A stretch of 64,000 nucleotides of DNA from a virus (lineage: Duplodnaviria; Heunggongvirae; Uroviricota; Caudoviricetes): the IMG/VR virus record IMGVR_UViG_647533160_000003. One strand, written 5' to 3'. Below the pieces are notes generated by a model. That model was not told the origin of the DNA. It did no database searches and worked only from the letters and a program-made list of their open reading frames with translations. Positions 1,700 to 28,635 of this stretch are shown here, in pieces; the stretch's first letter is position 1; every line of letters begins with the position of its first letter. Position numbers and translations under genes: made by a program.

Positions 1700-2368
1700 A
1701 TGACCAAGATCTTTGTGGTTGGCGGCACAAAGGGCGGGCCTGGCAAATCCACCGTTGCCCAGCAAATTGCCGTTTGCCTGAAAGTCAAAAAGAAGAAGAA
1801 GGTTTATATCACCGATATAGATATTCAGCGCACGACAACGAGCTGGTGTGAAGACCGTCGACAGAACGAAGACCTTGAGCTGATTCCTTTTGCATACGTT
1901 CAGGATGACATCATTAAGCACCTAAAATCGCTTCAGGGTAGAGCTGAGTATGTAGTGGTAGATGCTGGTGGCTTCGACTCCGAAATTCAGCGACAAGCGA
2001 TGCTGATGGCTGACGTTATCATTATCCCGCTGCGTCCTAAGCGTCGTGATTTGAAATCTTTACGTGACATCGATCCTATTATCGACAATGTTCGCAATGT
2101 AAACGATAAAGTGAAGGTCCGCGCGGTCATGAACCAGTGCCCGGCTTTGCCATCACAAGTGTCTCGCATTCTGGCGGCTAAAGAGATTGTCGAGACGTTT
2201 GGCATCGAGTCTGCGCCTGTCAATCTATATAACCGCAACGTCTACGATGATGCGGAAGAGTCTGGTCGTTCTATCTTTGAAATGACCGGTAGCGAGCGCG
2301 ACAAAAAGGCGGAAGCCGAGTTTGAAGAATTTGTAGATTATCTGTTGAGTCTGGAGGAAGAAGAATAA
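1700..2368 (+). CDS. parA: ParA-family partition ATPase
   Basis: N-terminal deviant Walker A KIFVVGGTKGGPGKST; about 220 aa as in small type-Ib ParA; AAAACAAGTTGTTT box upstream. Confidence 0.85.
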   Translation: MTKIFVVGGTKGGPGKSTVAQQIAVCLKVKKKKKVYITDIDIQRTTTSWCEDRRQNEDLELIPFAYVQDDIIKHLKSLQGRAEYVVVDAGGFDSEIQRQAMLMADVIIIPLRPKRRDLKSLRDIDPIIDNVRNVNDKVKVRAVMNQCPALPSQVSRILAAKEIVETFGIESAPVNLYNRNVYDDAEESGRSIFEMTGSERDKKAEAEFEEFVDYLLSLEEEE

Positions 2369-2727
2369 TGTCCATGAAAATGGGTGACCTAGCAAAGCGC
2401 AAAGAGCCTGATGCACCGGCTAAGAACACAACTCCTTTGCGCCAACCAGTCAGACCACAGGGACGCCCGACTCGTGGCAAAGAGAAAATTAAAAGCCGCA
2501 CAATGTCACTGGAAGACGAATACTTCGAACTGCTGGAGATGATGAAGTTCATCCCTCGCTTCGAGAAATTCACCCGCTCTGATGTGATTCGTGCTGCTAT
2601 TTTCCATCTGGCAGAGAAGTCGCCGCAGGAAATCGAGGATATCGTGAAACTTAACGAGGCGATCACTGCTGCCGACGTCACGATGCGTACCGATGAAATC
2701 AAACGCGAGTTGATGAAGAAAGGTTAA
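2368..2727 (+). CDS. small partition partner protein (ParB/ParG-like), putative
   Basis: 119-aa ORF translationally coupled to parA by TAATG overlap; basic N-terminus; size fits type-Ib centromere-binding partners. Confidence 0.5.
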   Translation: MSMKMGDLAKRKEPDAPAKNTTPLRQPVRPQGRPTRGKEKIKSRTMSLEDEYFELLEMMKFIPRFEKFTRSDVIRAAIFHLAEKSPQEIEDIVKLNEAITAADVTMRTDEIKRELMKKG

Positions 2728-2732
2728 TTTTA

Positions 2733-3323
2733 TTGAGGTGCTGCTTGGCACCTCTTTCTATAGGTTCCCTAATGCTCTACAAATATATTGGAAGTGAAGA
2801 TTCGCAAAAAGTGTTACGTAACCTCAAACGGTTTGTAGAGGACGGCACTATCTCTGCTAGCGCACCTTCTTCATTCAACGACCCATCAGAGTTCAAAGTT
2901 TCGATAACGATGGGAGGTACAGAAGTGGAGCGCCGGAAACACTTTGAAGACAATGGATGTAAGGATTTTTCCTTTGAAGACTGGGATGCTGTAGCTCCTG
3001 AAGCTGCAAAATCGTTGGCTGTGGATTTGCGGAAAGAATCATTAGGGGCTTTTGGTGTGGTGTGCTTGTCACCAAACGAAGATAACATCTTGATGTGGTC
3101 ACATTACTCAGTGTCGCATAAAGGTTTCTGCATAGGCTTTGATGATGATTTTGTTACCTCTATTGAGGGGTATCACAGCTTTGATAATGTGAAATATATA
3201 CCTTCTGTTCCCGTGTTCGATGAAGTTACAGATGAGTTTAAGGTACTTTTTGATAAGCTCTTTTTCTACAAGCACGAATGCTGGAAATATGAGGAAGAAC
3301 AAAGGGTTATTACTAAAAAATAG
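2733..3323 (+). CDS. DUF2971-like protein (tentative), probably frameshifted
   Basis: N-terminal LYKYIGSED...FNDPSEF pattern; coding signal continues in another frame from the A6 run at 3317 to a stop at about 3490. Confidence 0.45.
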   Translation: MRCCLAPLSIGSLMLYKYIGSEDSQKVLRNLKRFVEDGTISASAPSSFNDPSEFKVSITMGGTEVERRKHFEDNGCKDFSFEDWDAVAPEAAKSLAVDLRKESLGAFGVVCLSPNEDNILMWSHYSVSHKGFCIGFDDDFVTSIEGYHSFDNVKYIPSVPVFDEVTDEFKVLFDKLFFYKHECWKYEEEQRVITKK

Positions 3324-3532
3324 GCGCTCAGGCATTTGATAAGAAATATATTAGAGAGATCATTCTTGGGTATAACGTTTCTCCTGAAGTAGAAGAATAT
3401 GCCCGGACACAGCTAGACACGAGCATCGAGGTTTACAAAATGAGTACACCTGATGATGGTTATCTTCTTGTCAAAGAAAAGCTGAAGTAGCTCCAGACTT
3501 TCCTCAAATGATTATGTTGGGCGCTTTTCTTA

Positions 3533-4729
3533 TTGAACTGGTTAGTGAGGCTAATAATGGATTTGTTCTCAACCAAAATAGCAAAAAACAAGCTGCACGA
3601 ATCTTTTAAACAGATTTATCAAGATAATACATATGCTCCAGTAAGAGAAGTGATACAGTCGTGGGGGCGTGGGTTACTGGAGCGTAGCGGTGAGCAGACT
3701 AAATTCGTTAAAGAGTTTCAGACAACCTTCAATTCCGCCTTATGGGAATTGTATCTGAACGAAATGTTTATTCGTCTCGATTATTCTGTCGACTACACAA
3801 AAGACAGTCCCGATTTCTGTGTTACTACACCGTCAGGCTACCAGTTTAACGTCGAAGCTGTGATATCAGATCGGCCACATAATCCACCTGCAGGTGCTCT
3901 TTTTAGCGAATCAAAATTCAAACATCAATCAACGCTAAAATTAATCGGAAAAATCAAAGACAAACATGATCTTTTTACAGGAGTTAATGGCAAAAAATTC
4001 CCGTACTCTACGATGTCTCATGTAGTTAATAAGCCGTTTGTTCTGGCGCTTGCACCCTTTGACTCCGATTTATCATTGTCTCAAAATAACACAATCATCA
4101 ATCGAGTGTTGTTTGGCATTGAGGAACCTACCACCAGAAATTTGGTGACTGGCAGCCAAACTAAAGTTACCTCAATCAAAAAGAATGAAGACGTTGAAAT
4201 TCCATTAGGTATATTTACTAACGACTCATATAAAGAAATAAGTGCGGTTATTTTCTCCACCACCGGCACTTTTGGAAAAGCCGTGGTTCAAAGCGGTATC
4301 GGTAGATATGTAAGGTCAACACGATATCGAGCCATTGATGTGAATGATTTCATCGCCAATGAAGGGATGAAAAACGAGGGAAAGCACACACAAAGGATAG
4401 GACCTGATCATTTCATCACTACATATCGGCATTTTTTAAATAACGAAGTCACTGGTGCGGATATTGTAGTTTGCCATTCCACTGCTCATGAAGAGACGCA
4501 CTTTGACGGCCTTCATATTTACTACAATCCTTTTGCGACAGTGCCACTGGACAGAAATATTTTCTTCCCCCCAGAGATAACTCATAATTTTTACGATATG
4601 GAAAAAGAACAGTCTGTTCAGAATCATCCTGATGGAGCGCTGGTATCTAGACAGGTTTTTGAACCAACTAGAGCACATTTTAGGTATATCATGAAACATT
4701 GGTTTCCAGGCTTTCTAAAAGATGTTTAA
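3533..4729 (+). CDS. hypothetical protein (accessory, lower GC)
   Basis: 398-aa ORF; no confident motif; likely start at Met 3557. Confidence 0.5.
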   Translation: MNWLVRLIMDLFSTKIAKNKLHESFKQIYQDNTYAPVREVIQSWGRGLLERSGEQTKFVKEFQTTFNSALWELYLNEMFIRLDYSVDYTKDSPDFCVTTPSGYQFNVEAVISDRPHNPPAGALFSESKFKHQSTLKLIGKIKDKHDLFTGVNGKKFPYSTMSHVVNKPFVLALAPFDSDLSLSQNNTIINRVLFGIEEPTTRNLVTGSQTKVTSIKKNEDVEIPLGIFTNDSYKEISAVIFSTTGTFGKAVVQSGIGRYVRSTRYRAIDVNDFIANEGMKNEGKHTQRIGPDHFITTYRHFLNNEVTGADIVVCHSTAHEETHFDGLHIYYNPFATVPLDRNIFFPPEITHNFYDMEKEQSVQNHPDGALVSRQVFEPTRAHFRYIMKHWFPGFLKDV

Positions 4730-4917
4730 GCATCCTGCTGGTTGAATTTGGAACCTGCTTCTGTATATAAATACTAAGTTACTTATTATTATTTATACGG
4801 AAGCAGGTCTTTTTCTATGCCAACTTCCCAGACACATTCCCTTCCGTTTCCACTTCCAAAAACTGCCACCAGTCGCTATCATCCGCTCATTGCAATAAGT
4901 AAGTAACTACCTATCAG

Positions 4918-5667
4918 GTGAGCCACATGAGCCAAATCTTTTTTGATACCATTGACAACGACCAGTACGACTTCATGACAGAGTGGAATACCGCTGTTAT
5001 GGACAAGTGGGTCGCTGAAAACATTGGTTTGTCGCGCTGCAAAGACGAGGCTGAACTCTTCGAGACGAAGTGGTTTGATTACCGCGATATGCATCCTCTC
5101 ATGGCCACCTGTCTGTTTACGGAGGCGTACAAACGTCAGTACTCAAATATCATGCTGACGCACGGTCGCGAACACTTTGAAACAGCTCCGTTCACCACCG
5201 GGTTAAAACGCCTGCCTTATCAGGAGTTGTCGACTGCCAATAAAACGTCGCTATGGAAAGCACGCCAGTTTGCTGATCGCTATTGCTGTTCATACGACTA
5301 CTTTATCTCCACGGTTCTTTCCGCAGCTGCACGGCGTCTGTGGGACAAGTTGCCGCGCCCACAGCATTTATGGCAGCCAGAACTGATTGAGATATTCGAA
5401 GAGAAATTATCCAGACGCGCAACAACCCGTCTGGATGACTCTCTGGTTAGCTTTAAGCATATGGGAGACATGCAGTTCAACCCGATTCAGGAAAGCTATT
5501 TTGAGTGGATTCTGGAGCGTTTGCGCATCATCCCCCGCAGCAAGCGCATACGCGCAATTTTCTCTGCTATCTGGCTAATGGAAATCGTTCCAGAGCGCCT
5601 TATTTCCGCCCACTTTCCAGAAGAACTGGAAGAAGCACGGCGGTTTATTGATCCCCTATCTAATTAA
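4918..5667 (+). CDS. hypothetical protein
   Basis: 249-aa ORF immediately upstream of helicase gene. Confidence 0.5.
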   Translation: MSHMSQIFFDTIDNDQYDFMTEWNTAVMDKWVAENIGLSRCKDEAELFETKWFDYRDMHPLMATCLFTEAYKRQYSNIMLTHGREHFETAPFTTGLKRLPYQELSTANKTSLWKARQFADRYCCSYDYFISTVLSAAARRLWDKLPRPQHLWQPELIEIFEEKLSRRATTRLDDSLVSFKHMGDMQFNPIQESYFEWILERLRIIPRSKRIRAIFSAIWLMEIVPERLISAHFPEELEEARRFIDPLSN

Positions 5668-5710: not shown

Positions 5711-7051
5711 ATGACCGAACTTTGCCATACAGGACGCGGGCTGTCCGAAGAGTTTGATGAAGATTTCCAGAACAGACTGACGGCATATTTTTGTCGTGAT
5801 CACGAGTTTCTTACTCGTGCGGGAGATCTGGTTGTGCCTAGCCAATTTGCCAATGCGGCCAATGCCATATTGGTTAATATGGTTTCGGGCTATTACCGTA
5901 TGTACAAGAGCGCGCCTTCTTCATCTGCGATTCTGGATATGCTTAAGCGCGCGAAACGCGATAAGACCATCCGTGAGGAACTCTTCCCGGATGTTGTTGC
6001 TGCGTTTAAGCGCATCCTTGCAGAAAAATTGTCTGATACCTCGTACATGGTTGACCAGGTATCCACATTCGCAAAAAGTGTAGCGTTTGATGATGCTCTG
6101 ATTAAAGCTGCTGAACTGAAAGAGAAGGGCGACTTTCAGGGGGCGATGGCAATCATGGCCAAGGTTCAGCAGATAGGCTCGAACGAAGCGACCGGAATCT
6201 ATGACTACTACACCTCCGCAAGTGAGCGATTGAAAGCGCGTGAATATGAGGCTTCAGAGGAGTATGTGCCAAACAGCATTACAACTGGACTCCCTCTGCT
6301 CGATAGGTTGCTGTACCAAAAAGGCTGGGCGAAGCGTGAAATGGTGCTCTTCATGGGGTTCGCTAAATCCGGCAAATCGACCGCAATGGGTGAGTTTTCC
6401 ATAAACGCAACGCTTGCTGGCTACAATGTTCTGTATCTCTCGCTGGAGGTTCACACCACCATTTTATCCGACCGTTTTGATGCAAGATTGTCGGAGACAG
6501 AAATGTCCAAGCTGGTGGAACGGCGCGATGAGGTTCATCGTAAGTTGGCAGAGTTGGGAGCCACGAAGGGGATTGGTAGTTTGTGGGTGGTTGAGCGTCC
6601 GTCAGGAAGTATGTCACCGGCAGATCTGGACCGTATGCTTAACAGCATGAAAGCCAACGGCATGGTGCCTGACATGGTTGTTGTCGACTACGCAGATTTG
6701 ATGCGTGCCAGTTATGACCTTCGTGATGATCGCGCCAACATTCGTAGTATCTACACCGATTTACGTGCTCTTTATGACAAGCATAACGTTGCTGGGATCA
6801 CGGCATCGCAGACAAACCGTGAAGGTGGCGCGTCAGAAGTTGCCACAATGATGCACGCTGCCGACAACATCGAAAAAGTACGTATTGCTGACCTGGTAAT
6901 AACGATCAACAAAACCGAAGAAGAAGAAGCGAAAGGAGAGGCTCGTCTCTACTTTGCTGGTTCACGTAACCAGCAGGGAGGGATCAGCATTCGCGTTAAA
7001 CAAAACCTCGAACAAATGCGCTTCATTGAGCGAATCTTAGACGTTACCTAA
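5711..7051 (+). CDS. DnaB-like replicative DNA helicase
   Basis: Walker A GFAKSGKST and Walker B-like VVVDYADLM in C-terminal RecA-like domain; AAAACAATTTGTTT box upstream. Confidence 0.75.
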   Translation: MTELCHTGRGLSEEFDEDFQNRLTAYFCRDHEFLTRAGDLVVPSQFANAANAILVNMVSGYYRMYKSAPSSSAILDMLKRAKRDKTIREELFPDVVAAFKRILAEKLSDTSYMVDQVSTFAKSVAFDDALIKAAELKEKGDFQGAMAIMAKVQQIGSNEATGIYDYYTSASERLKAREYEASEEYVPNSITTGLPLLDRLLYQKGWAKREMVLFMGFAKSGKSTAMGEFSINATLAGYNVLYLSLEVHTTILSDRFDARLSETEMSKLVERRDEVHRKLAELGATKGIGSLWVVERPSGSMSPADLDRMLNSMKANGMVPDMVVVDYADLMRASYDLRDDRANIRSIYTDLRALYDKHNVAGITASQTNREGGASEVATMMHAADNIEKVRIADLVITINKTEEEEAKGEARLYFAGSRNQQGGISIRVKQNLEQMRFIERILDVT

Positions 7052-7060
7052 AAAATAAGC

Positions 7061-8314
7061 GTGGAGAACGCCTCCACGCTTGATTCATTGGTGAAACAAC
7101 TTTTCTTTTGCCAAACCACAAAAGAAAAACACATGAGCCTTTATGTTATATCAACATTTAGGTTGGTCACAATATTGCCTGTTAAAAGTGGAATTATCGT
7201 GAGCGAGCTGAAAGAGCTAATTACCGAATTAGATTTTGAACAATGGTTGGACACTGAAGGTATCATTTATCGGCGCGGAGGCGTGAGTGCTCGCGGTCGT
7301 GAAGTGAATATCAAGGAGTGTCCGGTATGCGGCAGCTCCAACTGGAAGGTATATTTCAATCTGACCAGTGGTGTGGGTAAATGTTTCGCTGGCGACCATC
7401 CTGAAGAAATACAATTTAATAAGCTGGTGTTCCTCAAGCACTACAGCGGTAAATCACGGCGACAGTTCGAAGAATATGTGCAGAACGCCCTTCTTTCTCA
7501 GGGATGGACACCAAAGAAAGAAGAGATAGTGCTTGCAAGCACAGTCGAGTTAGAGGGACCAGTTGCCCTCCCTCGTCATTACGAACTGCCTATAGATGGC
7601 CGTCTTCCAGACTATCTGGTTGAACGAAACATATCGCCTGAAATGGCAAAGTATTTTGACCTACGATACTGCGTCGAAGGCAAACACGCCTATGTAGATC
7701 CGTATACAGATCAGGTAAAAGGACAGATATTCGATATGCGAATACTCATACCGGTTTACGATCTGGATGGGGTAATGAAGACATTTCAGGGACGAGACAT
7801 TACCGGTACAGCAGAACGTCGCTACCTCTTTCCTATGCAGCTTCCAGCTTCAGGTAAGTTTCTCTACAACGGCCATAATGCAGTCGGCAAACAGACGGTA
7901 GTTGTCTGTGAGGGGGCGTTCGATGTTATGGGGGTCAAACGAGCTATTTTTGACGAAGAAACATTACGTGATTACGTGGAACCAATAGGAACGTTCGGGA
8001 TGCATCTATCTGGCAACACCACTCAGGATGCAGAAGATCAGCTGGGCGCGTTCCTGACGCTCAAGGCGCGTGGATTACGTAATGTGATCATGATGTGGGA
8101 TAGTGAAAAGCAAGCTATACGCAACACTATGGCCGCAGCTAGGCGACTCACAAGTATTGGTCTTAATGTCAAAGTTGCGTGTTTGGGCGAGGAAGGACTC
8201 GACCCCGGCGATGCGACACCGGGGCAGATTATCAAAGCCTACTATTGCGCAAAACCTTATTCACGACAGCTTGAACTCTTAAGCAAGGTGAAAGGCATTG
8301 CAGCACTAGTTTGA
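7061..8314 (+). CDS. DNA primase (zinc-finger plus TOPRIM)
   Basis: CPVCGSS...KCFAGDH zinc ribbon and TOPRIM-like VVVCEGAFDVMG; true start may be internal (7133 or 7200). Confidence 0.75.
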   Translation: MENASTLDSLVKQLFFCQTTKEKHMSLYVISTFRLVTILPVKSGIIVSELKELITELDFEQWLDTEGIIYRRGGVSARGREVNIKECPVCGSSNWKVYFNLTSGVGKCFAGDHPEEIQFNKLVFLKHYSGKSRRQFEEYVQNALLSQGWTPKKEEIVLASTVELEGPVALPRHYELPIDGRLPDYLVERNISPEMAKYFDLRYCVEGKHAYVDPYTDQVKGQIFDMRILIPVYDLDGVMKTFQGRDITGTAERRYLFPMQLPASGKFLYNGHNAVGKQTVVVCEGAFDVMGVKRAIFDEETLRDYVEPIGTFGMHLSGNTTQDAEDQLGAFLTLKARGLRNVIMMWDSEKQAIRNTMAAARRLTSIGLNVKVACLGEEGLDPGDATPGQIIKAYYCAKPYSRQLELLSKVKGIAALV

Positions 8315-9451
8315 ACCAGTATTAGTCACATACACATTGACCGAAAATGATTTAACTTCTGTATTGAAGTTGTCAGTCATTACTGCGAGGTAGGCATTCT
8401 TGGTATCTCTGAATTGCTTCAGGATGATTTGAACGTTGTCGGTGCAAACAAACGAGGTAGCCAGATTGCCTCCTTTCTCTGAAAAATCCTTCAGGAAGGT
8501 GCAGTCAACTTTGCCATCATTAGCGGTGAAGGTAGCATCATCACCCTGCCAGGTAAATGTAGCGTTAACGCCCTTATCAATGGATTTAGCAATAAGTCGC
8601 TGGGTGGCGGATTTTGTTTTGGCTTTGGAAGCCGGCGCTCGATATTTGCCGCTTTCTTTCAGTTCTGCAATGTAATCGCAGCCTCTTTTTTCTCCTTTAT
8701 CGCAAGCAGTCTGATAAAGGTCGGCTGCTTTTTTATAGTCCTTTTTTACACCTTCCCCATTCTCATACATAATGCCAAGATTGGTTATGGCGTCGGCGTT
8801 TCCAAGTTCCGCTGCCTTTTTATACCACTTAACTGCTTCTGCATCATTGCGTTTAACGCCTAACCCATCATCGTATAGTATTCCTAATCCTATCATAGCT
8901 TCTGAACTGCCTTGGTCTGCCGCCTTTTTGTAATAAGTAAAAGCCTTTTTATAATTCTTTTTAACGCCTTTACCATATTGGTAATACGCCCCAAGAACTG
9001 AAGTTGCTTTAACATACCCGGCATCAGAGGCTAGTTTGAAGTATTTAATGGCGAGTGCATGATCTACTTTACCAAGCATCCCCTTTTGATAAATAGCACC
9101 AAGATTGTTGTAGGCTCTACCTTCACGAGCATCCCCCGCAAGTTTGTAGTACTCAACAGCTTTATTTAGGTCTTTATCTACACCCTCGCCAAATGTGTAC
9201 ATAACTCCAAGTGCATAATATGCTACTTTATCTCCCTTTTCTGCAGCTAGATCAATCCACTTCTTGGCCTCAACTACATCCTTATCAAAACCATTGACAC
9301 CATCAAAATAATTTGTACCTAACTCACTTTGTGCTGCGGTATCCCCTGCGGTAGCGGCTTCTATCAGCGTTTGTTTATTGTCTGCGTTAACGAATCCAGA
9401 GTTAAAAAGCAAAGTTAATGCCAGCAACGATGAAGATTTTATGTATTTCAT
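8306..9451 (-). CDS. secreted Sel1-repeat (TPR-like) protein
   Basis: Signal peptide MKYIKSSSLLALTLLFNSGFVNA; tandem Sel1-like repeats (A..Y.LG.MY..G.GV.KD...A..WYKKAA); opposite strand to backbone. Confidence 0.75.
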   Translation of the reverse strand: MKYIKSSSLLALTLLFNSGFVNADNKQTLIEAATAGDTAAQSELGTNYFDGVNGFDKDVVEAKKWIDLAAEKGDKVAYYALGVMYTFGEGVDKDLNKAVEYYKLAGDAREGRAYNNLGAIYQKGMLGKVDHALAIKYFKLASDAGYVKATSVLGAYYQYGKGVKKNYKKAFTYYKKAADQGSSEAMIGLGILYDDGLGVKRNDAEAVKWYKKAAELGNADAITNLGIMYENGEGVKKDYKKAADLYQTACDKGEKRGCDYIAELKESGKYRAPASKAKTKSATQRLIAKSIDKGVNATFTWQGDDATFTANDGKVDCTFLKDFSEKGGNLATSFVCTDNVQIILKQFRDTKNAYLAVMTDNFNTEVKSFSVNVYVTNTGSN

Positions 9452-14288: not shown

Positions 14289-14363
14289 GATGGTGTAGCT
14301 CAGCGGTAGAGCAGTTGGCTGTTAACCAACTGGTCGGTGGTTCGAATCCACCCACCATCGCCA
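14289..14363 (+). tRNA. tRNA-Asn (anticodon GTT)
   Basis: Cloverleaf by eye: acceptor GATGGTG/CACCATC, T-arm GGTGG-TTCGAAT-CCACC, anticodon loop CTGTTAA, 3' CCA. Confidence 0.8.
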
Positions 14364-14368
14364 ATTTA

Positions 14369-14455
14369 GGGGAGTTAGTCCGTAGAGGTAGCGGGACAGA
14401 CTGTAAATCTACTGTCATTGCGACTCGGGTGGTTCGACTCCATCACTCCCCACCA
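14369..14455 (+). tRNA. tRNA-Tyr-like (anticodon GTA), class II, atypical anticodon stem
   Basis: Acceptor GGGGAGT/ACTCCCC, loop CTGTAAA, long variable arm, CCA; outer two anticodon-stem pairs are A-C mismatches. Confidence 0.55.
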
Positions 14456-14459
14456 AATT

Positions 14460-14535
14460 GCCGGTTTAGCTCAGTTGGTAGAGCGCCTGCCTTGTAAGCA
14501 GGATGTCAGCGGTTCGAGTCCGTTAACCGGCACCA
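14460..14535 (+). tRNA. tRNA-Thr (anticodon TGT)
   Basis: Acceptor GCCGGTT/AACCGGC, D-arm GCTC-AGTTGGTAG-AGC, anticodon stem CCTGC/GCAGG with loop CTTGTAA, CCA. Confidence 0.85.
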
Positions 14536-14759
14536 ATACAACGATAAGATCATTACGGTTAATCGTCGTTCATGTGCACAATGACTGGTCGAAAGGTAGT
14601 GATCTTACCGTTGTGGTGGATTCGCAGACTGATGCGATAGCTTTCTTGGATGTTAGGGAAATGCGGCCGCAAATCTTCCCTTTCGCGAGCGGTGATCGTC
14701 CGTAGTCCTAATTGGCTGCACCGTATGCCGGAGATTCAGTACCGGCCACCACAACGGCC

Positions 14760-14846
14760 GGAGAGTAGGGAGCATGGTGCTCAAGCGGTCTTGAAAATCG
14801 TCCCATTGTGCAAACGATGATGGTTCGATTCCATTACTCTCCGCCA
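14760..14846 (+). tRNA. tRNA-Ser (anticodon TGA), class II
   Basis: Acceptor GGAGAGT/ACTCTCC, anticodon loop CTTGAAA with G-U-containing stem, long variable arm, T-loop TTCGATT, CCA. Confidence 0.65.
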
Positions 14847-15024: not shown

Positions 15025-16236
15025 TCAAAAAAGTTTTATAAATTCATAATTCTGGTCAATTAAGGATTCAATACACACCATGCAAAAATCTACATCGTTA
15101 AAATCAGGTGTGTAATATTCATCCTCATAACATTCATTTAGACCTTCAATCAATTTTTCTTTAAAAACTCCCCACGTTTCAATATGAACCATTTCCATAT
15201 AAGGCGCATGTGTATGTACTTGCAATACATCCCAGGTGTCTATAACCTCGATCCGCGGCTTGCAATTAATTTTTTCTAAATATGCCCTCCCAGAATTGTA
15301 AATTTTCGACATTGATGCCCCAAAACCTGATGGTTGGTAATGAGTGTAAATGTCATAAATTTTTTGTCCTATTCTAGGGAGTTGAGAAGCATTGGATATT
15401 TGTGGCGAATGAAAGTATCGCTCTATGGAAGAAAACGCAGAAACATTAACTAGAGTAATCGTATATGGTGCTAAAGTTCTCTCGTTCAAATTTCTACATA
15501 AAATAGCAAACCCATGGCTATTAGTCTTTTCACCGTCTGAGGACATTTTTGCCATGCTGGCTTTAATAACATTCAATTTCGAATGTAAACGAGAAGTGGA
15601 AGTCGGTTGATTATACATTTCATCATCATACAAACATATATGAAACCCGCCAAGATGACGAAATGAGAACTTGAGTGCTTCTTCCGCAATAACTAATTTA
15701 TTAATATCTAAAGGAGTAAGTGATACGTTACCTTGTAAATCATAGCAAGGTTCTAAACATAGAAAGTTTTTCTTCTGCCACACGATCATATTAAAAATAA
15801 AGTGTCTAACCAAAGGTGGCCAGTCAGGTGATATAAGTACATTGGTAATATCTCCATCAGACAAGTATGACAAGTAACTTTTTAGTTCCGCAGCATATGC
15901 CACTAGCTCAGTTCCAGCTTCCCTTGTTGGTGTTGAAAAATTTTTTAACTCAATAAGAACTAAGGATTCATTCTCTGTTGAATAAGCAACGACATCAGGT
16001 CTTAATATCTCAGATTTTGTTGCTGAGATATTCTCATCATCTGTCATTAAATGTAACAATGTTATGTTCTTTAAACAAAACTGATAACTCTCCTTAATTT
16101 TTTTCTCTTCGGGTCTTTTCGGATTAAATTCATTTAATTTATCAATATTGATGATTGAATTATATAATCCATCTTGATCAGATAATTTGTCAATTATCCA
16201 ATTTTGCATTTCCTTTTCGCTTAAAAATATTGACAC
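15025..16236 (-). CDS. PD-(D/E)xK nuclease-like protein, second gene of candidate two-gene defense operon
   Basis: 403 aa; RPDVVAYSTENESLVLIELK is a PD-x14-ExK match; GTG start preceded by GGGAG RBS; very AT-rich. Confidence 0.6.
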   Translation of the reverse strand: MSIFLSEKEMQNWIIDKLSDQDGLYNSIINIDKLNEFNPKRPEEKKIKESYQFCLKNITLLHLMTDDENISATKSEILRPDVVAYSTENESLVLIELKNFSTPTREAGTELVAYAAELKSYLSYLSDGDITNVLISPDWPPLVRHFIFNMIVWQKKNFLCLEPCYDLQGNVSLTPLDINKLVIAEEALKFSFRHLGGFHICLYDDEMYNQPTSTSRLHSKLNVIKASMAKMSSDGEKTNSHGFAILCRNLNERTLAPYTITLVNVSAFSSIERYFHSPQISNASQLPRIGQKIYDIYTHYQPSGFGASMSKIYNSGRAYLEKINCKPRIEVIDTWDVLQVHTHAPYMEMVHIETWGVFKEKLIEGLNECYEDEYYTPDFNDVDFCMVCIESLIDQNYEFIKLF

Positions 16237-16262
16237 TAATTAGGCTCCCGTTAAACCAAAAA

Positions 16263-17084
16263 TTAAAAATCTTGCTTTACTTTATCCATGGTCAGAATTT
16301 TGCTAATAATTGAAGATTCAAATCCATCTAAACCTGAGAGAAAGTTAATTAGCTTTTGGATATGTTGTTCTTTAGGTATAAGTATATATTTTATATCATT
16401 GAACTCAAAATCAATGCCAAACTTTGAAAATTTTGAGCTAATTTTTGCTTTGTCATCAGAAGTGATAACACGCTCCAAACTCAGACTAGGCCATAAATCA
16501 CCAATAAAAGGAGCTGGCACATAACGCCACTCTTTCTCGTCTGCATATATATAATTCTCTATTGTTTTATTATCTTTTCGCTCTAGCTTGCCTCTGTAAT
16601 TTTTCATATAACGCAGTAAATTATATAGATCAGAATATTCTGCTTTCAATTTCTCAAACTCTATTCTGTTTTTGGTATCTAAATTTCCTCTAGCCTTCCA
16701 AAGCGGCACCAACTTATTTTTAATAAGTCGAATTCTGGCATTGTATTTAGAAAATATTTCACTACTCTTATTCATATATAGAACTGGGTGTAGACCTTTC
16801 TTTTCCGCCCAAGACTTAGTTAGCCCAAGACCGAATTCTCCATATTTTCCGCTATGATCTCTGATTTGTGATAGTTTTATGTCACAAAACGATACCATTG
16901 GTACTGCAAACCTCCTGCGTCCCCCGACTCCTCTTATTTCCTCGCGAGCAAGAAATGGTTTAAAATATTTCTCAGCCAATATGCTATAGAAAGCATCTTC
17001 GTTTTTTGTAAAATGAAACAACGTGGTTGGATGAAGACTATAAACAGATTCAACATTCGCATCAGGATTTTCAAGGATAGTCAT
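16263..17084 (-). CDS. hypothetical protein (LFHFT N-terminal motif), first gene of candidate two-gene defense operon
   Basis: About 273 aa from Met 17084 (AGGTG RBS 5 nt upstream; ORF open to 17129); 26-nt gap to downstream gene; AT-rich. Confidence 0.55.
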   Translation of the reverse strand: MTILENPDANVESVYSLHPTTLFHFTKNEDAFYSILAEKYFKPFLAREEIRGVGGRRRFAVPMVSFCDIKLSQIRDHSGKYGEFGLGLTKSWAEKKGLHPVLYMNKSSEIFSKYNARIRLIKNKLVPLWKARGNLDTKNRIEFEKLKAEYSDLYNLLRYMKNYRGKLERKDNKTIENYIYADEKEWRYVPAPFIGDLWPSLSLERVITSDDKAKISSKFSKFGIDFEFNDIKYILIPKEQHIQKLINFLSGLDGFESSIISKILTMDKVKQDF

Positions 17085-17373
17085 TTTACACCTTGTGGAA
17101 AGCCAGTTTAGTTCTGTAAATAGTATCACACGACAGGCGGCTATTCTTCTATCAATAAATGATAGGTAAGCACTTACTTTTTACGCACGTTAACTGTATA
17201 GTTCTTTCGGATACTCACTTGAAAGGACTCAATATGGGAAATAAATGTAAACATGCGCGTCGCGCATCTCGTCAGGTGCAGAAGTCAAATCCATACATTC
17301 ACGAGCACTACCACCTCAGCTCTTTCACTAACCGCTACACGTTCCCCAGCGAAGCGCATAACGAGGCAAAGCA

Positions 17374-17645: not shown

Positions 17646-17786
17646 CATGAAAGTGTGCGCTCAAATCAACTATATCTATGAAAAGGACAGTTATAAATAT
17701 TAAAAATATCTAAAATCCCTTCCGATATATGAATTATCAGATTAAAATTTCACACAATGTGCTTTTAATGAGTTATTATTTCACCT

Positions 17787-18411
17787 NNNNNNNNNNNNNN
17801 NNNNNNNNNNNNNNNNNNNNNNNNNNNNNNNNNNNNNNNNNNNNNNNNNNNNNNNNNNNNNNNNNNNNNNNNNNNNNNNNNNNNNNNNNNNNNNNNNNNN
17901 NNNNNNNNNNNNNNNNNNNNNNNNNNNNNNNNNNNNNNNNNNNNNNNNNNNNNNNNNNNNNNNNNNNNNNNNNNNNNNNNNNNNNNNNNNNNNNNNNNNN
18001 NNNNNNNNNNNNNNNNNNNNNNNNNNNNNNNNNNNNNNNNNNNNNNNNNNNNNNNNNNNNNNNNNNNNNNNNNNNNNNNNNNNNNNNNNNNNNNNNNNNN
18101 NNNNNNNNNNNNNNNNNNNNNNNNNNNNNNNNNNNNNNNNNNNNNNNNNNNNNNNNNNNNNNNNNNNNNNNNNNNNNNNNNNNNNNNNNNNNNNNNNNNN
18201 NNNNNNNNNNNNNNNNNNNNNNNNNNNNNNNNNNNNNNNNNNNNNNNNNNNNNNNNNNNNNNNNNNNNNNNNNNNNNNNNNNNNNNNNNNNNNNNNNNNN
18301 NNNNNNNNNNNNNNNNNNNNNNNNNNNNNNNNNNNNNNNNNNNNNNNNNNNNNNNNNNNNNNNNNNNNNNNNNNNNNNNNNNNNNNNNNNNNNNNNNNNN
18401 NNNNNNNNNNN
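17787..18411. other. assembly gap (625 N)
   Basis: Uninterrupted run of n. Confidence 0.99.
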
Positions 18412-19241
18412 GAAATGTTTCTACCACGGTGATAATCCATTCCATAAACCGAATCAATTCCTGAGTTCACTATCTTCATCTGAATTTCAAAAAAATCATT
18501 ATTTAAATCAAAGTAAACAATAGGGACCTCATATCTTCTGCTAGAAAAATCCATTGGTGATAGATAGTTAAGACCATTTGCACTGACCTTCACTTGAATT
18601 CCAGCCTGTATACCTGAATTCGACGTTGGAGCAGAAATAAGTAATTGAGAAAGTGGGTCTCGTTTGTCTATCCACACAATGTCCCGTTGAGTATCATTAG
18701 GTTGATATTTAGTAGGATAGTTAATTTTCGTATAGTTGAGTCCAGTCCCAACAGCTTTATAATTAGACAAACTATCTGTGAAAGGGGTATATCTCTTTGC
18801 TAATAATGCCCAGTTTTCATTTTGTTTCGCGTTTTTTTCACATTCTTCAACAATGAGTGCTTCCGCAATTTTACCTAATATTCTCATAGTTGTTTTATGG
18901 GGATCTAGTTCGATAATGATGTTTGACTTGATCACTCCTTCTTCATTAATACCAACAAGACCTAACTCTTTATCCATGAGTTCAAATAAATTTTCCCCAT
19001 GCTCAATTGCTAACAAAGCTGAAGGTCGTGATAATAATGAAGAGTTATTCCAATCTCCGAGGGAGATATCCAGACCTAAATCAATACCTTTAGTCGTCAC
19101 TACTAGCTGAGGTTTGGGAGGCGTAGCCCCTAATAACTCAGATAGCGTGTTGACTTCCGGTGTCTCTTTTATCATTTTTCTTATCCTGTTGCAGCGATCG
19201 CATGACAATACTATAAAACCAGCCATTTTCAAGTAAATCAA
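18412..19241 (-). CDS. hypothetical protein, N-terminal 276 codons only (interrupted by gap)
   Basis: Minus-strand ORF starting at 19241 and running into the N-run; AT-rich; no motif recognised. Confidence 0.5.
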
Positions 19242-25142: not shown

Positions 25143-28100
25143 CTTCTCTCTTGGGGAGTCGGCTCTAAAAGCAGAAAACGCGGTGAAGATTGCCAGAGAA
25201 GCTGGCTACACCGCTGTAATTTCGGCAGATAGCATGAATATTGCGAGTGTTATTCCACTACAACGTGCCGCTGGTGACGACATGGCGGTTATTTGTGGTG
25301 TGAAACTAAACATTGTTGATGATCCCACATACGAGCACCGGGCTAAACTTGCTAAAGAGTCTATGGGATGTATGGAATCATTAGAGCGTGGGCGGAACTA
25401 CTCCTTTACCGCTCTAATTAAAAATGAGCAGGGATATCGAGACATCTGCGAACTAATGACGGCGGCCAACACACGAGAACAGTTCTACTTTGTACCGCGT
25501 CTCTCGCTCGAACAGTTGGTTTCTACATATGCCAAAGGCAACATCATCCTGCTCACTGCCGACATCGGTAGCGTGTACCAACGCAACGATTTTGCAAAAA
25601 TCATAAGCTCACTGATTACAGCGGGTGGAAAAAACAACTTCTATAGTGTGGTTTATCCGCACCCTACCCCATTCTACGACCAGATTAACGTCCGGGCGAT
25701 GAAAGTCGCCAGCGCACTGAAAATAGAGCCAGTAGCGTTCTATCCCGCTTATTACGAATCGATCGACGATGCAGACATTAAAGACATTGCGCACATGGTT
25801 ACGAACAACATCAAAATCGACCAGCCGCATCGTCTGCGTATCCCCCACCAGCGAGATAACGCCGTCAATGGTCGCCGCCATCTCCTTGAGGCGCTGAAAG
25901 CCTTCTCCGTTCGCATGGATGTGCCGGTAACAGCCGCAATGGCCTCAACAACGCAGGATACCATTATCGATGCCTGCACATGGCGCTGGCATGAATTGCC
26001 ACCAGCACTGCCAAAGATGGCAGACGACGAGCCTGCAACGCTGATGAAACTGGCCGTTGCTGGGCTGCGTAAACGTCTTACCACAAAAGAGTTTGGCTAC
26101 ACACCACCGGCTTCTGAGAACAGGGTTTATGTTGAGCGACTTAAGTACGAAATGGACACGCTTACTCGCCTGGGATTTTGTGGTTACTTCCTGATGGTAC
26201 GCGATCTGATGAATCACAGCCGTGAAACTGGCATTCCTGTCGGGCCTGGTCGTGGTTCCTCCGCTGGCTCTTTGGTGGCATGGTGCATAGGCATAACCAA
26301 CGTCGACCCTATCCGTCACGGTCTTCTGTTTGAACGTTTCATCAACCCTGAGCGTCTCGACTTGCCAGATGCGGACTTGGACTTCAGCCAGGCACGTCGC
26401 CATGAGGTGATCGAGTATCTGAATGAACGCTACGGCGAAGATTACGTTGCAGGCATTCCGAACTTCACCTACCTGGGCGCGGCCTCTGCACTACGTGACA
26501 CCGCTCGTATTTATGGTGTGGAGTCCGCAGATATGGCGGTATCAAAAGAACTGAAGAACGTCGAGGATGATAGCCTTCCATTGGAAGAGCTGCGCGAACA
26601 ACTGGCAAGCCTCGACAAATACGCGACAAAATATCCTGATGCATTCAATGCAGCCTGCAAGTTACAAAGCCTTATGCGTGGCTATGGTAGACATGCGGCA
26701 GGGATGATCGTAGCAGGTGTTCCTCTGACAGAACGAACACCGGTTGAACGACGTGGTGACGCGCGTTGTATCGCATTTGACAAGCGTTACTGCGAGGCTA
26801 TGGGCCTAATTAAGCTGGACGTACTTGGCCTGGCGACTCTCGATTTGCTCGATAGTGCAAAACGCTACATTAAAGAGAACACAGGTGAGGATATCAATCT
26901 TGATGCCATTTCTCTTGAAGATCGCAAGGTGCTGGATGGTTTTGCTGCTGGGTACACTCAAGGTGTTTTCCAGCTTGAATCAGGCCCAATGCGCAAGCTG
27001 CTTAAAGATTTAGGTGGTGGAATTGAGCCAATGAGCTTTAAAACGGTCGTTGCTACGACTGCGCTCTTCCGGCCGGGGCCAATTCAGTCAGGCATGTTGG
27101 ATGATTATGTTTCTGTCGCCAAAGGCTTTATGACGCCGGAATCATTACACCCCGTTCTTGATGAACTTACCGCAGAAACAAATGGCGTGATTCTCTATCA
27201 GGAACAGACGATGAACGCGACTCGATTGCTTGCCGGCTTCACAATGGCTGAAGCTGACGGCGTTCGTAAAGCGATCGGCAAAAAAGACATGGAGAAAATG
27301 AAGAGCATGGGTGAGAAGTTCATCGTTCAGGCTCAAGCTGGCTGGATCGACGTTGAGCTGGAAGATGGCACTACACAGCGCATTCACCGTGCGGAACATT
27401 TTAAATGCGAAGACGGAACTCTGAAAACTGTCGAAGAGGCACTTGAGTTCGGTGCAAAACTACCTATAAACGCAGTACGCGTTACAGCGTCACATCCAGG
27501 GCTATCAGAGATGAAAGCGAAGGAGATCTGGACCGCATTCGAAAAGAATGGTGCCTACCAGTTCAACAAATCACACTCTGTTGCTTACTCCTTAATCAGT
27601 TATCAATCTATGTGGTTGAAAACTCATTATCCCGCAGAGTTTTTCGCTGCTGCTCTCACTATTCTTGGCGAAGATAAACACCAGGGGCTGGTTAAAGATG
27701 CGCTGACCTATGGTATTCGCGTATTGCCACCAGACGTTAACGTGTCATCTAACCGAATCGAGATCCGCACGCTTGAAGATGGCAGCCAGGTGCTGTATGC
27801 GCCCTTCTCTGCTGTGAAGGGGTGTTCTGAGAATGGCTGCCAGGCCATCATGAGAGCGCGAGAAAAGGTTGGCGGCAAATTCGAGTCACTTGCGCAATTC
27901 GAAGAAGCTGTCGAGAAACGTGCCTGTAATAGTCGAGTGCGCGAATCGCTGCAAAAAGTAGGGGCGTTTGCATCCATCGAGCCAGGTAGTCTGCCAGCAA
28001 CTGATCCAGAGCGCCTCCGCGACCAGGCTGAATTGATGGGAAACCTTGTCATAGATGCAGTTAAAGCCTCACGTCCGTTTGAGATGAACCCCAAACGTTC

Positions 28101-28635
28101 GGCTGAGATTAACGTGCTCATGACACGGATGGCGGCTGAAATGGGCTTAGGTGATGAACTAATCCGCCCCAGCATTGGTATTAAGCCGAAAATCATGATC
28201 ATTCTGGACAATGCGAACGGCAATGATGCTCGAACCGGTTACTTTATGGAGAACGGATACGACGATTTTAAGGCCAAGCTATTGACGGCTGGAGATTTAC
28301 GCATGGGCGATCTCTATGTCACAGGCGTTTGCAAGAAGGTTAAAGACAAAGAAAAAGACTACACCAAAGACGAGATCGGCCAGTTCACCGACTTTATGCG
28401 TGAAGAGATCAATCTGGTGCGTCCGACCTATGTGCTGACGTGTGGCAGCCGGGCAACGTCGCTCTTCAACAACAAGATCAAACCATCCGACCTGGTTGGA
28501 CGCAAAGAGTATCTGCCGGAGCTGGATGTGACTGTTTTCTACGGATTTAACCCGAATATTTTGTACTTTCGCCCAGAGGAAGGCGAAAAGCTGGAAGCAA
28601 TTCTGGCAGAGGTAGCGGAGACTATTAGCAAATGA
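25117..28635 (+). CDS. dnaE: DNA polymerase III alpha subunit (DnaE-like, PHP domain)
   Basis: 1172 aa; N-terminal PHP region; core motifs GLIKLDVLGLATLD and FNKSHSVAYS. Confidence 0.85.
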   Translation: MKALMVRTDFSLGESALKAENAVKIAREAGYTAVISADSMNIASVIPLQRAAGDDMAVICGVKLNIVDDPTYEHRAKLAKESMGCMESLERGRNYSFTALIKNEQGYRDICELMTAANTREQFYFVPRLSLEQLVSTYAKGNIILLTADIGSVYQRNDFAKIISSLITAGGKNNFYSVVYPHPTPFYDQINVRAMKVASALKIEPVAFYPAYYESIDDADIKDIAHMVTNNIKIDQPHRLRIPHQRDNAVNGRRHLLEALKAFSVRMDVPVTAAMASTTQDTIIDACTWRWHELPPALPKMADDEPATLMKLAVAGLRKRLTTKEFGYTPPASENRVYVERLKYEMDTLTRLGFCGYFLMVRDLMNHSRETGIPVGPGRGSSAGSLVAWCIGITNVDPIRHGLLFERFINPERLDLPDADLDFSQARRHEVIEYLNERYGEDYVAGIPNFTYLGAASALRDTARIYGVESADMAVSKELKNVEDDSLPLEELREQLASLDKYATKYPDAFNAACKLQSLMRGYGRHAAGMIVAGVPLTERTPVERRGDARCIAFDKRYCEAMGLIKLDVLGLATLDLLDSAKRYIKENTGEDINLDAISLEDRKVLDGFAAGYTQGVFQLESGPMRKLLKDLGGGIEPMSFKTVVATTALFRPGPIQSGMLDDYVSVAKGFMTPESLHPVLDELTAETNGVILYQEQTMNATRLLAGFTMAEADGVRKAIGKKDMEKMKSMGEKFIVQAQAGWIDVELEDGTTQRIHRAEHFKCEDGTLKTVEEALEFGAKLPINAVRVTASHPGLSEMKAKEIWTAFEKNGAYQFNKSHSVAYSLISYQSMWLKTHYPAEFFAAALTILGEDKHQGLVKDALTYGIRVLPPDVNVSSNRIEIRTLEDGSQVLYAPFSAVKGCSENGCQAIMRAREKVGGKFESLAQFEEAVEKRACNSRVRESLQKVGAFASIEPGSLPATDPERLRDQAELMGNLVIDAVKASRPFEMNPKRSAEINVLMTRMAAEMGLGDELIRPSIGIKPKIMIILDNANGNDARTGYFMENGYDDFKAKLLTAGDLRMGDLYVTGVCKKVKDKEKDYTKDEIGQFTDFMREEINLVRPTYVLTCGSRATSLFNNKIKPSDLVGRKEYLPELDVTVFYGFNPNILYFRPEEGEKLEAILAEVAETISK

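What the first reader, a model, noticed from the sequence alone, without database searches (positions are those of the whole stretch)
2733..4729. Lower-GC cassette after the par locus: apparently frameshifted DUF2971-like gene plus a 398-aa unknown
The ORF at 2733-3323 opens with LYKYIGSED...FNDPSEF, which I recall as a DUF2971-like signature seen in defense islands. It stops just after an A6 run at 3317-3322, and coding-like sequence continues in another frame for about 56 codons to 3490. Joined, the product would be about 250 aa. The next gene (3533-4729) is also lower-GC with no housekeeping motif.
Basis: partly seen in the sequence, partly recalled or inferred. Interest (0 to 1): 0.5.

Follow-up and report, generated by a model that had tools for sequence, protein, structure and literature searches.

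The report
Broken DUF2971 gene beside PD-T7-5 defence gene
This is a 2-kb anti-phage cargo cassette on an E. coli phage-plasmid: a candidate defence gene (DUF2971, a DarT-like ADP-ribosyltransferase fold) broken by loss of one A from an A7 run, next to an intact copy of the published defence gene PD-T7-5, so both parts are known kinds and the finding is ordinary.

Summary
The DUF2971 ORF starts at ATG 2772 and stops at TAG 3321-3323, right after an A6 run at 3315-3320. Its 3' end continues in the -1 frame to 3490.

All other full-length copies examined have A7 and an intact 239-aa gene annotated as DUF2971, except one A6 and one A8 lineage. So this copy carries a 1-nt homopolymer contraction, or a base-calling error, and not a programmed frameshift. 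The same tract is A6 in a second, diverged plasmid and A8 in another lineage, so it is slippage-prone.

The protein passes the Pfam DUF2971 threshold and matches PADLOC candidate PDC-S31. It models as a DarT-like ADP-ribosyltransferase fold. The truncation removes four strands and a helix.

The "398-aa unknown" is a 390-aa protein (ATG 3557) and a full-length PD-T7-5 homologue (E 1e-139). PD-T7-5 is a single-gene anti-T7 system validated in E. coli, with a PD-(D/E)xK-like N-terminal domain.

The two genes are independent modules. They lie in a variable slot between the partition genes and the replication genes of SSU5-family phage-plasmids. That slot carries either gene alone, both together, or other cargo. 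PD-T7-5 on these plasmids has already been reported. Interest is low.

The parts
1700..2368 (+). ParA/MipZ-type partition ATPase gene (222 aa). Conserved left flank of the variable slot.
   Evidence: Pfam AAA_31, MipZ, CbiA and ParA hits. Conserved in all SSU5-like relatives.
2368..2727 (+). 119-aa ORF after parA (presumed partition partner; phrog_5111, function unknown). Similarity between plasmids with different cargo ends at its stop codon.
   Evidence: PHROGs hit at 4.5e-80. Left breakpoints of similarity fall at 2725-2735 in L101, L102, L104 and L095.
2735..2754 (+). Terminator-like hairpin plus T-run just after the partition genes.
   Evidence: Terminator scan: 8-bp stem with 5 GC pairs, then TTTCT. 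The scan found 2 sites against 1.9 expected by chance, so this is weak evidence on its own.
2728..4752 (+). The accessory cassette as a whole (2.0 kb, 40.1% GC), inserted in the par-rep variable slot.
   Evidence: Breakpoints of similarity to plasmids that carry other cargo. GC content.
2772..3323 (+). 5' part of the DUF2971 / PDC-S31 gene (183 codons plus a premature TAG). It retains the conserved LYKY, FNDP, MWSHY and WxYExExR motifs.
   Evidence: Pfam PF11185 at 31.1 bits. PADLOC PDC-S31 at 2.7e-32. Alignment A3. The exact 183-aa product is WP_024180335.1.
3315..3320 (+). A6 run. It is A7 in nearly all relatives, with one other A6 lineage and one A8 lineage. This is the site of the 1-nt contraction that causes the frameshift.
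   Evidence: Alignment A1. It is the only indel in 37.4 kb against pLH09-a-C. Tract census: A7 in 13 loci, A6 in 2, A8 in 1.
3317..3490 (+). 3' remnant of the DUF2971 gene in the -1 frame (57 codons plus TAG). It encodes the conserved KEIILG strand and the C-terminal strands.
   Evidence: Translation. Identical to residues 183-239 of WP_080852155.1. HMM hit at 4.5e-14.
3414..3441 (+). Promoter-like site (TAGACA-16-CAAAAT) inside the end of the DUF2971 gene. It lies at the 5' edge of the 143-bp upstream segment that drove PD-T7-5 expression in the published clone.
   Evidence: Promoter scan (consensus match only, no more sites than chance). Cloned region 26967-28402 against ORF 27110-28283 in Table S2 of PMC9519451. 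The mapping onto the window is my inference.
3557..4729 (+). Intact PD-T7-5 homologue (390 aa). N-terminal PD-(D/E)xK-like domain with E64, D86 and E100, then a beta-rich C-terminal domain.
4750..4818 (+). Long inverted repeat followed by a U-run. It is the terminator of the cassette, and the conserved right flank begins here.
   Evidence: RNA fold -28.5 kcal/mol, z -6.6. The right breakpoint of similarity falls at 4740-4753 and the element is self-complementary.
4918..5667 (+). Conserved 249-aa ORF (phrog_2500, unknown function), followed by the DnaB-like helicase (5711-7051) and the primase-like gene (7061-8314). Right flank of the slot.
   Evidence: PHROGs. RefSeq annotation of relatives. 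ORF list.

Best explanation
Window 2728-4752 is a two-gene anti-phage cargo cassette. It sits in a recombination-prone slot between the partition genes and the replication module of an SSU5/pHCM2-family phage-plasmid of E. coli. The window is identical to GCA_000163195.1 scaffold GG749333.1.

Gene 1 is a member of the DUF2971 family, which PADLOC lists as candidate system PDC-S31. It has a DarT-like ADP-ribosyltransferase fold. The inferred mechanism is that, once a phage is sensed, the intact protein uses NAD+ to ADP-ribosylate a nucleic-acid or protein target and aborts the infection. In this copy the gene is inactivated by contraction of an A7 run to A6. That contraction stops translation at residue 183 of 239 and removes four beta-strands and a helix.

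Gene 2 is an intact copy of PD-T7-5, a published single-gene defence against phage T7. It most likely acts as a PD-(D/E)xK-type nuclease, with E64, D86 and E100 as the metal-binding triad and a C-terminal beta-rich domain for sensing or regulation. It is expressed from its own promoter, which lies inside the end of gene 1.

The two genes are independent modules stacked in one hotspot, not a two-component system.

Shown here: the identities, the lesion, the folds, the independence of the two genes and the variability of the slot. Inferred: the enzymatic activities, the targets, and whether A6 is a real mutation (my estimate is about 65%) or a base-calling error.
For: Element identity: 716 PLSDB plasmids and SSU5-like phages share the flanks.

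The lesion:
- Alignment shows A7 in relatives and A6 here.
- All 12 RefSeq complete E. coli plasmids that match in one uninterrupted piece carry one more base and an intact CDS.
- It is the only indel in 37.4 kb against pLH09-a-C.
- A6 also occurs in L105, which differs by 49 substitutions and has different upstream genes.
- The A8 allele (...KKNRRSGI, 189 aa) is on 18 contigs.

DUF2971:
- Pfam score above the gathering threshold.
- PADLOC PDC-S31 at 2.6e-38.
- AF2 model with pLDDT 90.
- Invariant Y, ExE and R residues in alignment A3.
- The family was predicted to be an HYE-like ART (PMC12522546), and a DUF2971 protein is a validated Abi (PMC11381338).

PD-T7-5:
- HMM hit at 1.4e-139.
- The published system was cloned with only 143 bp of upstream DNA and was active (PMC9519451).
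- Nuclease-fold hits.
- E64, D86 and E100 are at least 97% conserved in 76 homologues.

Independence of the two genes:
- None of 80 PD-T7-5 loci from other species has a DUF2971 gene within 6 kb, and the positive controls worked.
- The same slot holds PD-T7-5 alone, DUF2971 alone, or both.
- A 51%-identical DUF2971 gene sits alone between the tail-fibre assembly gene and the tail-sheath gene of P2-like prophages.
Against: - No experiment shows that this enterobacterial DUF2971 subfamily defends against phage. PDC-S31 is only a candidate, and I found no paper that mentions it.
- PD-T7-5 lacks the canonical Lys of the (D/E)xK motif. Here it reads E-A-V.
- Whether PD-T7-5 acts by direct immunity or by abortive infection could not be read from the paper's text.
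- Identity of the window protein to the cloned RRM82777.1 was not verified residue by residue.
- The source assembly is an older draft, so a homopolymer base-calling error cannot be excluded.
- In E. coli plasmids the pair stays together across 76%/54% protein divergence. That would also fit functional coupling.
Confidence: 0.8

Rival explanations
1. The frameshift is a sequencing or assembly artefact. The real plasmid has A7 and an intact DUF2971 gene, so nothing in the cassette is broken.
For: - The lesion is a 1-nt change in a homopolymer, the commonest error type on some platforms.
- The window equals an older draft scaffold, GCA_000163195.1 GG749333.1.
- A7 is the overwhelming majority state: 13 of 16 loci, all 12 full-length RefSeq complete plasmids, and 3 of 3 IMG/VR matches.
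Against: - It is the only indel in 37.4 kb against the closest complete relative. The other A/T runs of 7 or more in that stretch show no length difference from it.
- The same A6 state occurs in an independent assembly on a diverged backbone (L105).
- An A8 state is seen on 18 contigs, so the tract does vary in nature.
Confidence: 0.3
2. The A-run is a contingency (phase-variation) tract. Slipped-strand mispairing switches the putative ADP-ribosyltransferase gene off (A6 or A8) and on (A7) reversibly, which tunes the cost of a toxic defence gene on the phage-plasmid.
For: - All three lengths occur in natural isolates: A6 in two diverged backbones and A8 in a lineage of 18 contigs.
- Both off-states arise exactly at the tract.
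- The neighbouring PD-T7-5 gene stays intact in every one of these copies.
Against: - Seven A's is short for an efficient contingency tract (established knowledge; usually 8 or more).
- Off-alleles are only a few percent of contigs (one search counts).
- The tract is not conserved in the family. The 73%-identical homologue reads ITKSVGV instead of ITKKIGA.
- No within-strain heterogeneity was shown.
Confidence: 0.1
3. DUF2971 and PD-T7-5 form one two-gene system (for example sensor/effector or toxin/antitoxin), so the frameshift disables or deregulates the whole system.
For: - Same order, same strand and a short spacer (66 bp).
- The pair is retained in E. coli phage-plasmids across 76%/54% protein divergence and in all 10 places shown for the exact PD-T7-5 protein.
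Against: - PD-T7-5 protected when cloned with only 143 bp of upstream DNA.
- None of 80 homologue loci has DUF2971 nearby.
- Each gene occurs alone in the same slot.
- DUF2971 occurs alone in a P2-like prophage locus.
- PD-T7-5 stays intact where DUF2971 is frameshifted.
Confidence: 0.05
4. Programmed -1 ribosomal frameshifting or transcriptional slippage on the A-run makes the full-length protein from the A6 template.
For: The 3' part lies in the -1 frame, and a run of A's can support low-level slippage by RNA polymerase or the ribosome (established knowledge).
Against: - Relatives encode the protein in one frame through A7, so the shift is not a conserved feature.
- There is no X XXY YYZ heptamer, because T precedes the run.
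- The -1 frame has TAA at 3314-3316, leaving only a one-codon slip window.
- Six A's is below the length at which transcriptional slippage is efficient.
Confidence: 0.03

Closest known systems
PD-T7-5 (Vassallo et al. 2022, Nat Microbiol; PMC9519451), a single-gene E. coli anti-T7 system labelled 'Nuclease'
   Same: - Full-length HMM match at E 1.4e-139.
- Same ORF length (1173 bp) and same species.
- Same weak PD-(D/E)xK signature.
- PD-T7-5 has already been reported on clade-J SSU5 phage-plasmids of E. coli and Shigella (bioRxiv 10.1101/2025.09.12.675607).
   Different: Nothing detectable. Residue-level identity to RRM82777.1 was not checked. The mechanism remains unpublished.
PADLOC candidate PDC-S31 / Pfam DUF2971 (PF11185)
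   Same: HMM matches over the whole protein. It is a stand-alone gene in mobile-element hotspots.
   Different: This copy is truncated at residue 183 of 239. PDC-S31 itself has no published validation that I could find.
Aristaios (lactococcal plasmid DUF2971 Abi system; PMC11381338, PMC13064643)
   Same: DUF2971 domain, predicted ADP-ribosyltransferase fold, single gene, plasmid-borne. It blocks phage transcription and protein production.
   Different: Aristaios is 316 aa and from a Gram-positive host. No direct sequence comparison was made here. Its relationship to this gene is at the level of the Pfam family only.
DarT of DarTG toxin-antitoxin systems (ssDNA thymidine ADP-ribosyltransferase)
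   Different: - No DarG macrodomain antitoxin gene is adjacent.
- There is no sequence-level similarity.
- The motif-I His is replaced (LYKY).
- The target is unknown.
Defence hotspots of temperate elements, such as the P2/P4 hotspots
   Same: Fixed flanks with interchangeable defence cargo. A 51%-identical DUF2971 gene lies between the tail-fibre assembly and tail-sheath genes of P2-like prophages.
   Different: Here the slot is between the par genes and the replication genes of a phage-plasmid. I found no paper that describes this particular slot.

Membership tests
Pfam DUF2971 (PF11185) | Score above the curated gathering threshold (22 bits) | tested here: met
   31.1 bits for the truncated window product and 30.2 bits for the intact relative.
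PADLOC PDC-S31 (candidate single-gene defence) | Full-length match to the PDC-S31 HMMs | tested here: met
   PDLC04990 at E 2.6e-38, covering residues 2-234 against profile positions 9-254 of 259.
PADLOC PDC-S31 (candidate single-gene defence) | Demonstrated protection against phage | not testable with these tools
   No literature found on PDC-S31. Only the distant DUF2971 protein Aristaios is validated (PMC11381338).
ADP-ribosyltransferase superfamily, DarT-like | ART fold | tested here: met
ADP-ribosyltransferase superfamily, DarT-like | Conserved catalytic motifs (motif II aromatic residue, motif III ExE) | tested here: met
   In 30 sequences at 22-73% identity, W-S-H-Y, Y-E and R of the W-x-Y-E-x-E-x-R motif are invariant and the second Glu is at least 90% conserved. 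Assigning them to motifs follows PMC12522546 and is an inference.
ADP-ribosyltransferase superfamily, DarT-like | NAD+-dependent ADP-ribosylation activity | not testable with these tools
   Needs biochemistry.
DarTG toxin-antitoxin | Adjacent DarG macrodomain antitoxin | tested here: not met
   The neighbours are the 119-aa partition-associated ORF and PD-T7-5. There is no macrodomain hit. In other plasmids DUF2971 stands alone.
PD-T7-5 | Full-length match to the PD-T7-5 HMM as a single gene | tested here: met
   PDLC04110 at E 1.4e-139, 463 bits, covering residues 1-371 against profile positions 1-342 of 346. Homologues occur without a conserved partner.
PD-T7-5 | Protection against T7 when expressed from its own promoter | not testable with these tools
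   Published for the UMB0934 gene, which was cloned with 143 bp upstream. Not tested for this copy.
PD-(D/E)xK nuclease superfamily | Restriction-endonuclease-like alpha-beta-beta-beta-alpha-beta core | tested here: inconclusive
PD-(D/E)xK nuclease superfamily | E...PD...(D/E)xK catalytic motif | tested here: inconclusive
   E64, P85-D86 and E100 are at least 97% conserved in 76 homologues, but the third motif reads E-A-V/M with no Lys. K241 is 100% conserved and could substitute.
Programmed ribosomal frameshift site | The shift is conserved among homologues, with a slippery heptamer | tested here: not met
   Homologues are in frame. T precedes the run, and TAA lies in the -1 frame at 3314-3316.
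Phase-variable contingency locus | Tract-length polymorphism among isolates that switches the reading frame | tested here: met
   A6, A7 and A8 alleles were all found.
Phase-variable contingency locus | Long, conserved repeat tract with a high switching rate | tested here: not met
   The tract is only 7 nt. It is absent from the 73%-identical homologue. Off-alleles are rare. The switching rate was not measurable here.

The most novel reading that the evidence does not exclude
The A7 run in this enterobacterial DUF2971 gene works as a reversible on/off switch for a costly DarT-like ADP-ribosyltransferase defence gene carried by a phage-plasmid. A6 and A8 would be the off-states that recur in nature. 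In that case the window captures an 'off' phase variant rather than a dead gene.
Probability: 0.1. Interest if true: 0.45.

Novelty: already known. Interest (0 to 1): 0.2.

Why it matters
It matters little beyond annotation. The cassette shows that this phage-plasmid carries one working, published anti-T7 defence gene and one disabled candidate defence gene.

Three points may be useful:
- The "hypothetical protein" WP_000362946.1 on these plasmids can be named PD-T7-5.
- The slot between the partition genes and the replication module of SSU5-family phage-plasmids behaves as a defence hotspot. Its cargo includes PD-T7-5, PDC-S31, PDC-S49 and unknown genes that are reasonable candidates for new systems.
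- The DUF2971 gene has a slippage-prone A7 run with natural A6 and A8 alleles. That gives ready-made loss-of-function controls for testing whether this predicted ADP-ribosyltransferase really defends E. coli.

Tried and rejected
Searches that found nothing:
- NCBIfam gave no family for either protein.
- PHROGs gave only unknown-function families, phrog_1762 and phrog_8571.
- Profile searches against PDB sequences found nothing meaningful for either family.
- A literature search for 'PDC-S31' returned no paper.
- IMG/VR scans for the A6 and A8 alleles found none. A7 was found three times.
- PADLOC and Pfam gave no hit for three other cargo proteins of the same slot: L102 225 aa, and L104 246 aa and 136 aa.
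- The promoter and terminator scans found no more sites than chance, so the promoter assignment rests on the published clone boundaries, not on the scan.

Checks with caveats:
- L107 looked like a third A6 case, but its contig simply ends inside the run, so I discarded it.
- I tried to find the published source contig RRWJ01000050 among the places that encode the exact protein. It was not among the 10 shown.

Readings considered and rejected: programmed frameshifting, DarTG membership, and a two-gene DUF2971 + PD-T7-5 system. The reasons are given under the rival explanations.
Full report
WHAT IS THERE

The window is part of an SSU5/pHCM2-family phage-plasmid of E. coli. A 2.7-kb query around the finding matches 716 PLSDB plasmids, nearly all non-mobilizable and about 110 kb long, from Klebsiella, Escherichia, Enterobacter and Salmonella. 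It also matches SSU5-like phages through its flanks. The first 6.3 kb of the window are 100% identical to scaffold GG749333.1 of assembly GCA_000163195.1.

The gene order is as follows:
- parA-like ATPase, 1700-2368
- a 119-aa ORF, 2368-2727
- the cassette
- a conserved 249-aa ORF, 4918-5667
- DnaB-like helicase, 5711-7051
- a primase-like gene, 7061-8314

CHECKING THE OBSERVATION

The ORF 2733-3323 exists. The start used in relatives is ATG 2772, which gives MLYKYIGSED.... TAG follows at 3321-3323. The -1 frame is open from 3317 to the TAG at 3488-3490 and encodes 57 codons.

Three complete plasmids have A7 at this position and one uninterrupted 720-bp CDS. RefSeq annotates it as a "DUF2971 domain-containing protein" of 239 aa. 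The plasmids are pLH09-a-C, pCAV1741-110 and pECAZ155_2. The window's two pieces are identical to that protein. All 12 RefSeq complete E. coli plasmids that match in one uninterrupted piece span 2074 bases for the 2073-base query, which means A7.

The cassette is 40.1% GC, the flanking genes are about 48% and the whole window is 44.4%. About 11% of equal-sized windows are as low or lower, so the GC dip is real but unremarkable.

IS THE FRAMESHIFT REAL, PROGRAMMED OR AN ARTEFACT?

It is not programmed. Relatives are in frame, no X XXY YYZ heptamer is present, and the -1 frame has a TAA at 3314-3316.

On the question of artefact versus mutation, four results bear on it:
- Against pLH09-a-C, window 1-38027 shows 15 substitutions and exactly one indel, and that indel is this one. 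The other A/T runs of 7 or more in that stretch show no length difference.
- The exact 183-aa truncated product is a RefSeq protein, WP_024180335.1.
- The A6 state also occurs in GCA_030193675.1 (L105). That plasmid differs from the window by 49 substitutions over 4.7 kb and has different upstream genes.
- A 189-aa variant ending ...KKNRRSGI is exactly what A8 predicts. DNA from L108 confirms A8, and this allele is on 18 contigs.

Among the loci I fetched, the tract is A7 in 13, A6 in 2 and A8 in 1. IMG/VR has A7 three times and neither of the others.

The tract is therefore a natural slippage hotspot. I favour a real contraction (about 65%) over a base-calling error in an older draft (about 30%). 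Only the reads can settle this.

GENE 1: DUF2971

The sequence evidence is as follows:
- Pfam PF11185 is passed at 31.1 bits against a threshold of 22.
- The intact protein matches PADLOC candidate PDC-S31 over its whole length at 2.6e-38.

The motifs Y-K-Y, F-N-D-P, W-S-H-Y and W-x-Y-E-x-E-x-R are invariant or nearly invariant across 22-73% identity. This agrees with the published prediction that DUF2971 is an HYE-like ART related to DarT and AbiGi (PMC12522546).

A lactococcal DUF2971 protein, Aristaios, is an experimentally validated single-gene Abi system. It blocks phage transcription and protein production (PMC11381338, PMC13064643, PMC12967558).

The frameshift falls three residues after the ExE strand. 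It deletes four beta-strands and one helix, including the conserved KEIILG strand. The truncated product keeps the catalytic motifs but probably cannot fold, which is an inference.

GENE 2: PD-T7-5

The 390-aa product (ATG 3557, preceded by GAGG) matches the PADLOC PD-T7-5 model end to end, at E 1.4e-139. It matches PD-T7-1 more weakly.

PD-T7-5 was isolated by functional selection from E. coli UMB0934. It is an ORF of the same length (listed span 27110-28283), labelled "Nuclease". It was validated after cloning with only 143 bp of upstream DNA (PMC9519451, Table S2). Mapped onto the window, that clone would begin at 3414. It would therefore exclude a functional DUF2971 gene and contain the promoter-like site at 3414-3441. 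This mapping is an inference.

In 76 homologues reaching down to 28% identity, E64, P85-D86, E100-A101 and K241 are at least 97% conserved. The canonical Lys of (D/E)xK is absent, because the motif reads E-A-V. A non-canonical PD-(D/E)xK nuclease is the best mechanistic guess, but it is unproven.

A strong hairpin followed by a U-run (4750-4818; -28.5 kcal/mol, z -6.6) ends the cassette.

ONE SYSTEM OR TWO?

Two. The evidence for independence:
- Eighty loci encoding PD-T7-5 homologues in other species have no DUF2971 gene within 6 kb, and the positive controls worked.
- Salmonella plasmids and Cronobacter pCS1 carry PD-T7-5 alone in the same par-rep slot.
- Klebsiella plasmids, Salmonella plasmids and phage Cyrano carry DUF2971 alone in that slot.
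- E. coli plasmids carry both, including a diverged pair at 76% and 54% identity.
- A 51%-identical DUF2971 gene sits alone between the tail-fibre assembly and tail-sheath genes of P2-like prophages.

THE SLOT

Similarity between plasmids with different cargo ends at 2725-2735 on the left and resumes at 4740-4753 on the right. Other cargo found in the slot includes a KAP-family NTPase that matches PDC-S49, and proteins with no known family.

I found no paper that describes this slot. PD-T7-5 on clade-J SSU5 phage-plasmids has already been reported.

VERDICT

The cassette consists of a known defence gene and a known candidate that is broken, or mis-called, at a homopolymer.

Novelty is "already known" and interest is low. 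The only mildly new points are the recurrent A6 and A8 alleles and the hotspot behaviour of the par-rep slot.

Noticed in passing
window 15025-17129, minus strand: A second probable defence locus: an AbiGi-family protein (PADLOC AbiGi, E 5.5e-47; window 16266-17084) followed by a 403-aa ORF (15025-16236) with no PADLOC hit. It lies next to the tRNA cluster. AbiGi is itself classed as ART-like in PMC12522546, so this plasmid carries two ART-like defence candidates.
   Followed up: partly
window 14289-14846, plus strand: A cluster of four tRNA genes (Asn-GTT, Tyr-GTA, Thr-TGT, Ser-TGA) on the phage-plasmid.
   Followed up: no
window 17786-18412: The only large structural difference from pLH09-a-C in the first 38 kb. 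About 626 bp in the window correspond to about 185 bp in the relative. Overlapping ORFs of 264, 230 and 486 aa there had no PADLOC hits.
   Followed up: partly
window 38028-59945: Identity to pLH09-a-C drops from 99.9% to 98.9%, with substitutions clustered around 51.4-56 kb and four small indels. This suggests a recombinant, mosaic segment in the phage structural and replication region.
   Followed up: no
L101, L102, L104 (the same par-rep slot in other E. coli plasmids): The slot elsewhere carries a 568-aa KAP-family NTPase that matches PDC-S49, a 225-aa ORF on the opposite strand, and a 246-aa plus 136-aa gene pair. The last three have no Pfam or PADLOC family. They are possible untested defence genes.
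   Followed up: partly
L097-L100 (P2-like prophages of E. coli): A 241-aa DUF2971 protein, 51% identical to the one here, sits alone between the tail-fibre assembly gene and the tail-sheath gene of P2-like prophages. From recollection, that position is a known cargo hotspot.
   Followed up: partly
window 8306-9451, minus strand: A 381-aa secreted Sel1/TPR-repeat protein is encoded opposite to the replication genes. RefSeq annotates it as a tetratricopeptide repeat protein in relatives.
   Followed up: no
NZ_OZ501614.1 (hit H49): One E. coli plasmid matches the cassette in two pieces that span 2044 bases instead of 2074. This implies a deletion of about 30 bp somewhere in the cassette. Its position was not determined.
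   Followed up: no
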